From a virus, in the UHGV virus genome UHGV-1366603: a stretch of DNA of 64,000 bases; one strand, given 5' to 3'. A program made the position numbers. Below, in pieces: positions 12,001 to 15,000 of the stretch. Within the stretch, counting starts at the first letter, position 1. Every line of letters starts with the position of its first letter.

Positions 12001-15000
12001 CAGGTAACGTGGTGGTCGTTGAACACGACAACGGTAAGATTGAGTGGGCGATTGCCCGTGATGGTGATTTTGGCCACACAATCAAATCTCTGAACTTACA
12101 CGAAATCGGTTCAGCTCTCGAAGCCGTTGAAAAAATTATCCGTGCTTTACGTCAGCGTGGTACGAAGCGTCGTAGTGTTGGTTATACCGGTATTTACGAT
12201 GAAATTCAGCGAATGAAAAAAGAATTGAAATCGTTAGACGGTCGTGAATTACGTGACGCTACCGTTCGGTATAAAAACGCACTGCGTTTAGAAGATGCGT
12301 TTACTACCTCGTTAGTGCGTGTTGCGGAAGGCTTACTGGAATGGTGCAGGTTGTCGCTGATTGAGGTTAAATAATGCGTATCACTATTATTCTCAAACCC
12401 GACAGTAAATACGGAAAGTTATACGGCGACCAGGTACTCAAACTGCACAACATGTTGTTCGCAGAAGAGAAAGTGCGTATTAGTCAGTTAACTGGACGTG
12501 ACACGTTCAACCCCATCGAACGTTTAGAAGAGATTTGGCCTCAAGATTATCTCTGTGCTTGTGCGGTGGGTGACAACGAACAGCTTCTGGGATTTATGAC
12601 GTTCTCATTGGGTTCTTGCTCAAAAGACACGTTTGTTTACATCGGGAATTACTATGTGATTCCTGAAGCACGCTCTCAAGGGGTAGGGCGTGCGCTTATG
12701 GACAAAGTCCGTGAATACGGAAAGTCTAAAGGTTGTGGTTGGATGAGTCTGGATGTGTTAGACAACAACGTTAAAGCTATCTCCTTGTATGAGAAAATGG
12801 GATTCCGTACCGAATGCAGGGAAATGATAAAGGAAATCTAAAATGGCTGCAAGATTCGTACCGTTTCATGACGGGTCTAGATATACTTTTGGTGTAGAGC
12901 GTTACGCTGTGGGTTTTCGTCCTGGTTGGAGAGTGGTACGAATCGATAAAGCGTGTTGGTGTTTACCGACCGGCATTTTTGATTACTTTACGCCTGAAGC
13001 TTTAACGCGGTTTGTTTCTCTGGGTTCTCCCACGCAACGTGCTGCGTGGGAAAAGAATATTCGTTGCCGTTATTTGGGTAAAACACGAAACGCGACGGTA
13101 CGCGGTGTTTATCACGTAGGAAGCCGTTGGTTACACGTTGAGCCAACACATCTCCGTTGTGCCGTCACGCCCTTTAACGGTGAATATCGCGGTCAGGTGT
13201 ACACTGGGTTACATTTTGCGTTCCCGGATAACCCTGACCTTAATTATTTTCTGGCTACCCCGAAAGACGTTACATTAGCCACGTTCTATAAATACCTTTT
13301 GTTCTATCCTGCGTACGTCGTTGCAGAATACGAACACAAAGCATTTCCTCTACCTTACGGTAGAGACAGGAGATTAGCAGGATGTTCTATCGAGAACTTC
13401 AGCAATACACCGACGCTCTCCGAAAAGCGACCATTGATGCTCACAACAACCTCAGAGATGTCGTTAGCGTTATAGAACAGTGTTCGGATGTATTGTATGC
13501 GGAAACGATTGAAACGCCAACCCGCGACGGTGTGAAATCGCTCCAGCTACACGTTTGTAGTAAACACGGCAGTCTGTCGTTAAACTTCCGTGTAGGTTTA
13601 GATTATTACATGGTTCGTAAGAGCTATTTAAGTTGTGACGGTGACCTCTATCCGGTTGTCTGGAACAACGATTATTCTAAGTTTGTTTATCCACTTGAAG
13701 AACACCGACGCACGGTTTATGAATTTGTGAAAGCTGTTCTCGAGGGGTTCTAAAGAGGGTATTGTGATGTCAGAGATGATTCTCGACTCATTACTGCTGA
13801 TTACGGTGGCGTATATCAACAAAACCGGTAAGCTACCAAAGCGTGGGGTGACGATTGAACGGGAGGGGTTTAAGCACCGCTACCCGTTAACGAAAGTTCT
13901 CGATTTGGCAGCGCGGTTAGCGAAGATGCGTAGACCGACGTCAGACGCAGCACCGAAGTACGTCTTAGTGGTACTCCAACGTGCGATTTCTGAAGTCCGT
14001 CGTGCGCGTCGTCGTGCCTCGTTTCGCTTTTATCCAAACTCTACGCAACAGGTTGTGGGGGTCTATAACGAAATGGTTGTTGATTTACGTGCCGAACGCT
14101 GTAACGTTACAGGACTTGCGTATAACCGCCTCAAACGCATTCTGGACGACTCAGACGCGTTTACCACACCGCAAGAAGGTCAAGCGGCTTTAGCGCTTCT
14201 ACGAGGCGCTGAGCTCGTTATTGTGGACACCGCAGTACAGGCCGCAAGAATGCAGCACTATCTTGCTAAGCAAGGGTTAGTTTTACTGTGTGTACCGTCT
14301 GCACAGACTGCTAATCTTACCGCACCGGAAACGTCAGAAGTGTGGAGTGGTCCGATTGTTGACCATCAATAAAACCTTACCCCTACCTATCGGTAGGGGC
14401 GGGTTTCTTTTTTATCCTAAAATTTATTACAACCAATAGCTATTATGTGAACGCCGGTATGGAATAAAGAAGTATCGGTTTAAATTTTTGTGCGTAAAGG
14501 TAAAACGATAATGCTTAAGACAGTGTCTATTGATGGCCCTGACTTTTCTGGGAAATCGACGTTGTGCAAAATGGTAAAAGGTATGCTGGAATCTGCGGGG
14601 TTAAAGGTCTGCATCCGTAATCACCCTACGACGGAGACCGAAGCGGGTATCCGCGCACGCAGTTTAGTCATTCAGTCCGCAGCAAAAGCAAAAATTGCCG
14701 AAGCGATGTGCGACGATTTCCTCCACACGTTAGACCATGTTGTTGACGATTACGATGTTGTTATTTTCGACAGGTTCTGTCCCTCTACAGTCGTTTACCA
14801 GGGTGTCGACGGTAAAGACGAAGTTTTCCGACGTAAGCTAACGCGTCATTTCCACGCACCAGATTTGTACGTTTGGACAGATGTGGATTACGACGGCGCA
14901 GTAGCACGCTTTAAGAAACGGGTAGAAGAACAAGGTAAGAATTGGGACGATGAGGTTCTTACCGTTAAGTATTTAAAAGACAACCAAAGTTGGGAAGCGT

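What the first reader, a model, noticed from the sequence alone, without database searches (positions are those of the whole stretch)
13382..13475. 94-nt overlap between two same-strand genes
The 12843 ORF runs to 13475 while the next gene has a strong AGGAG-ATG start at 13382 in another frame. Either a genuine long overlap or the first gene is effectively shorter; worth verifying as a possible frameshift or regulatory coupling site.
Basis: seen in the sequence. Interest (0 to 1): 0.2.

Follow-up and report, generated by a model that had tools for sequence, protein, structure and literature searches.

The report
Conserved overlap of two jumbo-phage genes
Two neighbouring genes of unknown function in a giant (phiKZ-like) phage really do share 94 bases in different reading frames, and every relative examined keeps an overlap, but only its first ~40 bases matter to both proteins, so this is an ordinary if unusually long gene overlap, not a frameshift site.

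Summary
ORF A (12843-13475, 210 aa) and ORF B (13382-13753, 123 aa) overlap by 94 nt, with B in the -1 frame of A. B starts at an ATG 9 nt after AGGAG (13368-13372).

The window is a SPN3US-like jumbo phage. A and B are homologs of SPN3US gp96 and gp97, both of unknown function. All ~40 related loci examined keep the overlap in the same frame relation, with lengths of 40, 55, 73, 82 or 94 nt. Eleven near-identical metagenome contigs from separate assembly records keep exactly 94 nt, which rules out an indel artefact.

Only the first 13 codons of the overlap are constrained in both frames. Synonymous-codon sharing there is 83% (A) and 68% (B), against 41-49% elsewhere. A's last 18 codons follow B's codon periodicity, tolerate A-nonsynonymous changes and are predicted disordered. 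B's N-terminus is a confidently folded helix.

I found no slippery heptamer, no conserved RNA structure and no Rfam match. B has its own conserved ribosome-binding site and ATG. Programmed frameshifting is therefore rejected. Whether translation of the two genes is coupled is untested.

Verdict: a genuine, anciently fixed overlap made of a 40-nt dual-coded core plus a drifting 54-nt tail. Low interest.

The parts
12843..13475 (+). Gene A: 210-aa conserved hypothetical protein, homolog of SPN3US gp96 (SPN3US_0096), PHROG 9255
   Evidence: ORF. tblastn finds 62 phage records, best E 4e-60. phrog_9255 E 7.9e-62. Substitutions against close relatives are mostly synonymous. AF2 mean pLDDT 82.8, well folded up to about residue 165.
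13382..13753 (+). Gene B: 123-aa conserved hypothetical protein, homolog of SPN3US gp97 (SPN3US_0097), PHROG 8535, in the -1 frame of A
   Evidence: ORF. tblastn finds 53 records, all aligned over residues 1-123. phrog_8535 E 6.9e-41 matches profile positions 1-123 of 123. AF2 mean pLDDT 93.8, with N-terminal helices 2-15 and 25-32 confident.
13368..13372 (+). Shine-Dalgarno AGGAG of gene B, embedded in A codons for the conserved G-R-D-R-R-L motif
   Evidence: A purine-rich GGAG/GAGG-type motif sits 6-11 nt upstream of the B ATG in all aligned relatives.
13361..13363 (+). TAG stop in B's frame, which closes that frame 21 nt upstream of the B ATG
   Evidence: Several relatives also have B-frame stops just upstream of the ATG.
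13382..13418 (+). Dual-coded core of the overlap. A reads C-S-I-E-N-F-x-x-T-P and B reads M-F-Y-R-E-L-x-x-Y-T-x-A-L. Both frames are constrained.
   Evidence: Synonymous-codon sharing is 83% (A aa 180-192) and 68% (B aa 1-13), against 41-49% elsewhere. Both exceed all 245 control windows, whose maximum is 57%. No substitution between 13356 and 13434 in relatives that differ at about 10% in A. The core is close in length to the shortest overlap in the family, 40 nt.
13419..13475 (+). Lineage-specific, unconstrained C-terminal tail of A (aa 193-210 plus stop), read over B codons 13-31
   Evidence: A amino-acid identity is 0.19 and A codon position 2 is the least conserved (0.29), so the periodicity follows B. 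B-synonymous but A-nonsynonymous changes L198S and L200Q occur in close relatives. The tail is completely different in an 85%-identical relative (L028). AF2 pLDDT is below 50 for residues 187-210. The A stop position varies among relatives.
11241..12841 (+). Upstream genes of the same tightly packed block: phiKZ-type internal head protein (11241-12374) and GNAT acetyltransferase (12374-12841)
   Evidence: Pfam PF12699 E 6.3e-8 and PF00583 E 8.8e-19. The same gene order is found in SPN3US gp94-gp95 and in the other genera.
13764..14372 (+). Downstream gene C (202 aa, PHROG 8075, homolog of SPN3US gp98), 10 nt after B
14380..14399 (+). Terminator-like hairpin CCCCTACCTATCGGTAGGGG followed by a T-rich tract. 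Likely end of the transcription unit that holds A and B.
   Evidence: A second copy of the motif lies at 15142-15161, with 0 expected by chance.

Best explanation
A and B are two separate protein-coding genes of a SPN3US-like jumbo phage whose ends were locked together in a common ancestor. B is translated from its own ribosome-binding site (AGGAG, 9-nt spacer, ATG 13382), which lies inside the 3' part of A. Ribosomes translating A read through that site in the other frame and stop 94 nt later, inside B. The first ~13 codons of the overlap encode sequence that matters to both proteins: the end of A's conserved region, ...PYGRDRRLxGCSIENFxxTP, and B's N-terminal helix, MFYRELxxYTxAL. Separating the genes would therefore require duplicating this segment, so the overlap persists. 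Beyond that core, A's frame simply runs on until the first stop that B's coding sequence happens to allow. This gives a disordered, drifting tail of lineage-specific length, with total overlaps of 40, 55, 73, 82 or 94 nt. Shown here: both genes are real, the overlap and its frame are conserved, the constraint is dual in the core and B-only in the tail, and no frameshift signals are present. Inferred: B initiates independently, A, B and their neighbours sit on one transcript, and the overlap itself has no dedicated regulatory role beyond possible passive interplay between ribosomes translating A and ribosomes initiating on B.
For: Geometry.
Homologs of both proteins over their full lengths; PHROG matches.
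Overlap in the same -1 frame relation in every related locus. GenBank records assigned to Seoulvirus, Erskinevirus, Machinavirus, Wellingtonvirus and Derbicusvirus. IMG/VR contigs. Metagenome contigs.
Exactly 94 nt in 11 near-identical contigs from separate assembly records.
Purifying selection on A and B separately. Most substitutions against L011 and L012 are synonymous in the non-overlapping parts.
Dual constraint limited to the first 13 codons: codon-position identities, and synonymous-codon sharing of 83% and 68% against at most 57% in 245 control windows. A's own first 13 codons show 44%, so this is not a general start-proximal effect.
A's tail is unconstrained (and the 36-sequence alignment) and predicted disordered.
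B residues 1-32 are confidently folded helices.
B's SD-ATG belongs to the class that marks gene starts in this phage.
The genes are tightly packed, with a terminator-like hairpin after gene C.
Against: There is no expression data for this phage or its relatives. SPN3US gp96 and gp97 are not mentioned in the main text of the SPN3US virion proteomics papers searched, nor in the one held supplement of the 2023 paper. Translation of either protein, and of A's tail in particular, is therefore not shown. The excess synonymous conservation in B codons 1-13 could owe something to initiation-region constraints or to the small GUUC/GAAC hairpin rather than to A's protein sequence. Only one control N-terminus (A's own) was examined. 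The function of both proteins is unknown, with no informative fold match, so a functional reason for co-regulation cannot be assessed.
Confidence: 0.85

Rival explanations
1. Programmed -1 ribosomal frameshift. Some ribosomes translating A slip into B's frame within 13364-13475 and make an A-B fusion protein, as in phage lambda G/GT or E. coli dnaX.
For: B lies in the -1 frame of A in every relative. An internal SD-like AGGAG lies upstream, and such sequences can stimulate frameshifting in dnaX (own knowledge). GAA AAG at 13422-13427 contains the A AAG element.
Against: My reading finds no X XXY YYZ heptamer in A's frame between the last B-frame stop (13361-13363) and A's stop. The GAAAAG is absent from relatives, and in the 55-nt and 40-nt lineages A has already terminated before or near that point. 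No conserved downstream structure was found: RNAalifold gives only a 4-bp hairpin with no covariation, and Rfam gives nothing. B keeps an invariant ATG with an SD in all relatives, which a frameshift-only product would not need. No natural in-frame A-B fusion was seen in about 40 loci.
Confidence: 0.03
2. Artefact. A sequencing indel or a mis-called start creates an apparent overlap, and in reality the genes abut.
For: [quoted passage not shown] GenBank annotators disagree here. phiEaH2 and Proteus phage 7 omit A, while pEa_SNUABM_4 and CR5 start B downstream of A's stop.
Against: The same 94-nt arrangement is found in 11 contigs, from separate assembly records, of the same phage group. A conserved overlap is found in GenBank genomes assigned to five genera. 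B's N-terminal 31 residues align in all homologs, match the PHROG profile from position 1 and fold confidently. The only in-frame alternative starts are a TTG at 13493, a GTG at 13532 and an ATG at residue 77. A's conserved region (PYGRDRRLxGCSIENFxxTP) extends past B's ATG in all homologs.
Confidence: 0.02
3. Functional translational coupling or occlusion. The overlap is maintained because translation of A controls how much B is made. A-translating ribosomes might unfold the B ribosome-binding site (RNA-unfolding coupling, as proposed for MS2 coat and lysis with a 50-nt overlap), or they might occlude it and so fix an A:B ratio. This is compatible with the best explanation and would add a regulatory layer to it.
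For: A review of coupling states that the RNA-unfolding model is the more likely one when the overlap is large (PMC12548453). B's ribosome-binding site is less accessible than most gene starts in the window (0.42 against 0.49 +/- 0.085, rank 36 of 44). The local fold is slightly more stable than shuffles (z = -1.95). The overlap is universally retained.
Against: No conserved structure sequesters the SD or the ATG across relatives. The accessibility equals that of random coding positions (0.41 +/- 0.11). Termination-reinitiation is implausible with the start 40-94 nt upstream of the stop. The variable position of A's stop argues that where A terminates does not matter. Retention of the overlap is already explained by dual coding of the 40-nt core.
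Confidence: 0.25

Closest known systems
[quoted passage not shown]
   Same: It is a same-strand, out-of-frame overlap of two unrelated proteins. It is conserved among orthologous pairs, its exact length is specific to each genus, and nucleotide conservation is high inside the overlap.
   Different: This case is in a jumbo phage, not a cellular genome. The overlap reaches 94 nt, beyond that paper's 60-bp limit. Only the first ~40 nt are dual-constrained here, and the remainder is a drifting tail.
SPN3US gp96/gp97 and their annotated orthologs (ChrisDB gp110/gp111, Asesino gp112/gp113, Wellington gp117/gp118, EarlPhillipIV gp98/gp99)
   Same: These are orthologous gene pairs with the same synteny (internal head protein, GNAT, A, B, C, with thymidylate kinase further downstream), the same frame relation, and an overlap of 40-94 nt already present in the GenBank annotation.
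   Different: The window's proteins are only 31-52% identical to them. There is no megablast match for 12300-14400 in the phage collection. I found no discussion of the overlap in the SPN3US papers searched. Some records annotate it away.
Overprinted or overlapping genes of small phages (phiX174 A/B/K and D/E; MS2 lysis gene over coat and replicase); own knowledge plus PMC8227390 and PMC12548453
   Same: One DNA segment is read in two frames on the same strand. The downstream start lies inside the upstream gene. One frame dominates the constraint over most of the overlap.
   Different: Those overlaps are long enough to contain a whole gene or a large part of one, and they arise from de novo gene birth. 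Here only the termini overlap, both proteins are otherwise encoded separately, and a 220-kb-plus genome is under no evident size pressure.
-1 programmed frameshift pairs (lambda G/GT tail chaperones, dnaX tau/gamma); own knowledge
   Same: The downstream ORF is in the -1 frame, with an SD-like element upstream.
   Different: There is no slippery heptamer and no stimulatory structure, and the downstream ORF has its own conserved start. The pair neither works like one nor belongs to the class.

Membership tests
Genuine co-directional overlapping gene pair (both frames coding) | Both ORFs have independent homologs covering their full length, including the overlapped ends | tested here: met
   B homologs align over residues 1-123, and the PHROG profile matches positions 1-123 of 123. 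A homologs align to residue 190-193 in all lineages and to 210 in the 94-nt lineages.
Genuine co-directional overlapping gene pair (both frames coding) | The overlap and its frame relation are conserved in orthologous pairs | tested here: met
   All ~40 loci keep the overlap with frame offset 2. Lengths are 40, 55, 73, 82 or 94 nt.
Genuine co-directional overlapping gene pair (both frames coding) | Excess conservation of synonymous sites of each frame inside the overlap (dual-coding signature) | tested here: met
   Met for the first 13 codons: 83% and 68% against at most 57% in 245 control windows. Not met for B codons 14-31 (45%), so A codons 193-210 impose no constraint.
Genuine co-directional overlapping gene pair (both frames coding) | Both proteins are actually translated, including A's tail | not testable with these tools
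   No Ribo-seq or proteome data. gp96 and gp97 are absent from the main text of the SPN3US virion mass-spectrometry papers and from the one held supplement searched.
-1 programmed ribosomal frameshift site | Slippery heptamer X XXY YYZ in the upstream frame within the overlap | tested here: not met
   My reading of A-frame codons 13364-13475 and of the relatives finds none. The only partial element, GAA AAG, is not conserved.
-1 programmed ribosomal frameshift site | Conserved stimulatory hairpin or pseudoknot downstream | tested here: not met
   RNAalifold on 14 sequences gives only a 4-bp hairpin, -2.5 kcal/mol, with no compensatory change. No Rfam match at E <= 1.
-1 programmed ribosomal frameshift site | The downstream frame is expressed only as a fusion and has no start of its own | tested here: not met
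   ATG plus SD are present in all relatives. B-frame stops lie just upstream of the ATG in the window and in several relatives.
Termination-reinitiation coupling (ATGA/TAATG-type junctions) | The stop of the upstream gene lies within a few nucleotides of the start of the downstream gene | tested here: not met
   The start is 94 nt upstream of the stop (40-94 nt in relatives). Junctions of the short type do occur elsewhere in the window, for example at 12374 and 18198.
Mispredicted long overlap (categories of PMC2478687) | The gene end differs in length from its orthologs (5' extension of the downstream gene or 3' extension of the upstream gene) | tested here: inconclusive
   B's 5' end is identical in position to all orthologs, so it is not an extension. 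A's 3' end is 13 to 18 codons longer than in the 55-nt and 40-nt lineages but equal to that of the ChrisDB-type phages. This is a real but unconstrained 3' extension on top of a real 40-nt overlap.
PHROG 9255 / PHROG 8535 (SPN3US gp96- and gp97-like proteins) | Significant full-length match to the family profile | tested here: met
   E 7.9e-62 (positions 4-200 of 202) and E 6.9e-41 (positions 1-123 of 123).

The most novel reading that the evidence does not exclude
The overlap is maintained for a regulatory reason and not only by dual coding. The SD embedded in A's invariant Arg-rich motif (the AGA GAC AGG AGA codons) would pause or meter A-translating ribosomes so that B initiation is set by A translation. 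That would fix the stoichiometry of two proteins that act together, a long-range (40-94 nt) coupling of the RNA-unfolding or occlusion type in a jumbo phage.
Probability: 0.12. Interest if true: 0.35.

Novelty: new member of a known kind. Interest (0 to 1): 0.15.

Why it matters
The value is mostly practical. This is a well-supported example of a real co-directional overlap longer than the 60-bp rule of thumb that annotation pipelines use to reject overlaps. It explains why GenBank records of related jumbo phages inconsistently drop gene A or truncate gene B (phiEaH2, Proteus phage 7, pEa_SNUABM_4, CR5). It also illustrates cleanly how such overlaps are built, with a short dual-coded core that locks two genes together and a free-running tail whose length drifts. 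It does not reveal a new mechanism, and both proteins remain of unknown function.

Tried and rejected
1. Megablast of 12300-14400 against phage genomes gave no match. Protein-level searches were needed.
2. Pfam gave nothing for A or B. PHROGs gave only families of unknown function.
3. PDB sequence profiles gave nothing for A and one weak hit, to a coat protein chain, for B (E 0.004, no domain stretch passing threshold).
5. The SPN3US proteomics papers mention gp94 as a head protein but not gp96 or gp97. One text search failed because its terms were too short.
6. -1 frameshifting was rejected: no slippery site, no conserved structure, and B has its own start.
7. Termination-reinitiation was rejected on distance.
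8. Sequestration of the B ribosome-binding site was tested by partition-function accessibility and was inconclusive. The 7-bp hairpin at 13348-13366 in the window's MFE fold is not conserved in relatives.
9. The 4-bp GUUC/GAAC hairpin just after the ATG is formed by codons fixed by B's amino acids (Phe2, Glu5), so covariation cannot be assessed.
10. The large representative-protein search was not used, because it returns no genomic context and would not bear on the overlap.
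Full report
**1. What is in the sequence**

The window contains ORF A at 12843..13475 (+, ATG, 210 aa) and ORF B at 13382..13753 (+, ATG, 123 aa). 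They share 13382..13475, which is 94 nt. B lies at offset 2 from A, meaning the -1 frame.

- AGGAG lies at 13368-13372, 9 nt before the B ATG.
- B's frame is closed by TAG at 13361-13363, so B cannot begin further upstream.
- The only later in-frame starts are a TTG at 13493, a GTG at 13532 and an ATG at residue 77.
- No ORF of at least 40 aa on the minus strand crosses the overlap.

**2. Is it more than chance?**

The pattern AGGAG-N5-10-ATG occurs 18 times in the window, against 5.8 +/- 2.7 in dinucleotide-preserving shuffles. Most matches coincide with the start of a long ORF, so in this genome the motif is a good marker of real starts.

Most + strand gene junctions in the window are small gaps or overlaps of 1-8 nt. 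Once SD-supported starts are chosen, the next longest overlaps are about 35 nt (25632/25666) and 23 nt (46119/46141). A/B is thus the longest among the + strand genes; junctions on the - strand were not analysed.

**3. Context**

- The upstream genes are a phiKZ-type internal head protein (PF12699) and a GNAT acetyltransferase. Downstream lie a 202-aa protein and a thymidylate kinase.
- The 12300-14400 region has no megablast match in 50,697 phage records.
- At protein level, A and B match SPN3US-like jumbo phages of Salmonella, Escherichia, Proteus, Erwinia and Cronobacter at 31-52% identity.
- In SPN3US the block is gp94 (head protein), gp95 (GNAT), gp96 (A), gp97 (B) and gp98.
- gp94 is a head protein by mass spectrometry (PMC10052503). 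gp96 and gp97 are not mentioned in the main text of the SPN3US virion papers searched, nor in the one held supplement.
- A and B belong to PHROGs 9255 and 8535, both of unknown function.
- Genes from 11241 to 14372 are tightly packed and are followed by a terminator-like hairpin at 14380-14399. They probably form one transcription unit; this is an inference.

**4. The overlap is conserved**

In every related locus where both genes could be read, B's ATG lies inside A at frame offset 2.

| Overlap | Loci |
|---|---|
| 94 nt | the window; L009-L012 and L023-L029; ChrisDB, Caitlin and pEa_SNUABM_4 |
| 82 nt | L017 |
| 73 nt | L021, CR5, EarlPhillipIV (Derbicusvirus) |
| 55 nt | SPN3US, STsAS, pEa_SNUABM_29, Proteus phage 7, Asesino, phiEaH2, L015, L019, L030-L033, L036 |
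| 40 nt | L020, L034, L035, Wellington |

- L009-L012 and L023-L029 are eleven contigs from separate metagenome assembly records, 85-99% identical to the window in A.
- The GenBank records involved are assigned to five genera, and the window's own group is distinct from all of them.

An indel or assembly artefact is thereby excluded. GenBank annotation is inconsistent here. phiEaH2 and Proteus phage 7 omit A. pEa_SNUABM_4 and CR5 start B downstream of A's stop, although the full-length B ORF with its ATG is present in both.

**5. Which frame is under selection, and where?**

*(a) Close relatives.* Against L011 and L012 (about 10% nucleotide divergence in A), the substitutions in the A-only and B-only parts are overwhelmingly synonymous, so both are real coding genes. 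No substitution falls between 13356 and 13434. In 13435-13475, changes occur that are synonymous in B but non-synonymous in A (L198S, L200Q).

*(b) Codon-position identity in 14 diverse sequences.*

| Region of A | Position 1 | Position 2 | Position 3 |
|---|---|---|---|
| codons 180-192 | 0.75 | 0.65 | 0.74 |
| codons 193-210 | 0.51 | 0.29 | 0.52 |

- A's position-3 identity elsewhere is 0.33-0.48.
- In codons 193-210 the amino-acid identity is 0.19 and position 2 is the least conserved, so the periodicity there is B's and not A's.

*(c) Synonymous-codon sharing among sequence pairs with the same amino acid.*

| Region | Shared codons |
|---|---|
| All non-overlapping blocks | 41-49% |
| A's own first 13 codons | 44% |
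| A codons 180-192 | 83% |
| B codons 1-13 | 68% |
| B codons 14-31 | 45% |

The 83% and 68% values both exceed all 245 sliding 13-codon control windows, whose maximum is 57%.

*(d) Family alignment.* In a 36-sequence alignment, the family is conserved up to ...PYGRDRRLxGCSIENFxxTP. After that it varies in both sequence and length (0-20 residues). An 85%-identical relative has an entirely different tail.

*(e) Structure prediction.* AlphaFold2 gives A a confident fold up to about residue 165, intermediate confidence to 186, and pLDDT below 50 for residues 187-210. B is confident throughout (mean 93.8), including helices 2-15 and 25-32, which are encoded by the overlap.

Taken together, the overlap consists of a ~40-nt core constrained by both proteins plus, in this lineage, 54 nt in which only B is constrained. 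Across those 54 nt A merely runs on as a disordered tail. The core is close in length to the shortest overlap seen in the family.

**6. Mechanism**

The best-supported reading is two independently initiated proteins. B has its own SD and ATG in all relatives.

Programmed -1 frameshifting was considered because the frame relation fits, but the evidence is against it:

- There is no X XXY YYZ heptamer in A's frame between the last B-frame stop and A's stop (reading).
- The only partial element, GAA AAG, is not conserved.
- RNAalifold on 14 sequences finds only a 4-bp hairpin with no covariation.
- Rfam finds nothing.
- No natural A-B fusion occurs among the loci.

Termination-reinitiation is implausible with the start 40-94 nt upstream of the stop.

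Coupling by RNA unfolding is considered the likelier mode for large overlaps (PMC12548453), but the data here do not decide it. The predicted accessibility of B's ribosome-binding site (0.42) is somewhat below that of other gene starts (0.49 +/- 0.085). It equals that of random coding positions (0.41), and no conserved structure masks the site. Coupling is therefore neither shown nor excluded.

The SD lies within A's codons for the nearly invariant R-D-R-R-L motif, so that short stretch also serves two purposes.

**7. Comparison with what is known**

Co-directional overlaps are common when short. A survey of 338 prokaryotic genomes found no real one longer than 60 bp. It named holD/rimI (32-56 bp, with genus-specific length) as the longest genuine case (PMC2478687).

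The present pair behaves like holD/rimI: it is conserved, has a lineage-specific length and shows high nucleotide conservation. It differs in lying in a phage and in reaching 94 nt, although the extra length carries no constraint on A. It is not a frameshift pair and not an embedded overprinted gene.

The overlap is already present in the GenBank annotation of several relatives (SPN3US, ChrisDB, Asesino, Wellington, EarlPhillipIV). I found no discussion of it in the SPN3US papers searched.

**8. Function of the proteins**

**9. Verdict**

This is a new member of a known kind, of low general interest. It is useful mainly as an annotation lesson and as a clean example of a 'locked core plus drifting tail' overlap.

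Noticed in passing
window 14380-14399 and 15142-15161: Two copies of a GC-rich hairpin, CCCCTACC-N4-GGTAGGGG, each followed by a T-rich tract. They lie just after gene C and just after the thymidylate kinase gene. Zero copies are expected by chance. They look like a phage-specific intrinsic-terminator motif that delimits transcription units.
   Followed up: partly
whole window; L009-L012, L023-L029: The 12300-14400 stretch has no megablast match among 50,697 GenBank phage records. However, near-identical contigs of 150-228 kb exist in IMG/VR and in several metagenome assemblies, and 96%-identical B proteins are filed under Shigella sonnei and Enterobacter assemblies. This appears to be an uncultured SPN3US-like jumbo phage group of Enterobacteriaceae with no close match in the GenBank phage collection searched.
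   Followed up: partly
L005 (phiEaH2), L008 (Proteus phage 7), L006 (pEa_SNUABM_4), L037 (CR5): The GenBank annotations of these relatives either omit gene A or start gene B downstream of A's stop, apparently to avoid the overlap. The full ORFs are intact in the DNA.
   Followed up: yes
proteins P0034-P0040 and P0062-P0067 (Salmonella phages SPFM8, 9, 10, 12, 14, 15, 20): In the SPFM series, the gp96- and gp97-like proteins have odd lengths (106-197 aa) and align with the query over only 8-59% of its length. This suggests frameshifting indels in those genome assemblies at this locus.
   Followed up: no
window 25581-25666, 39738-39793, 46119-46141, 49772-49809 (- strand): Other apparent same-strand ORF overlaps of 23-86 nt. 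With SD-supported starts they shrink to about 35 nt (25632), 11-20 nt and 23 nt. The 38-nt apparent overlap on the - strand was not analysed. None of these was examined in relatives.
   Followed up: partly
window 13385-13398: A small hairpin, GUUCU-AUCG-AGAAC, lies immediately after the B start codon. Its 4-bp core GUUC/GAAC is kept in nearly all of the 14 aligned relatives. Its stem bases are fixed by B's Phe2 and Glu5 codons, so a structural role cannot be separated from coding.
   Followed up: partly
window 13348-13366: A 7-bp hairpin, CUCUACC-UUAC-GGUAGAG, lies just 5' of B's Shine-Dalgarno in the window's predicted fold. It is not conserved in more distant relatives.
   Followed up: partly
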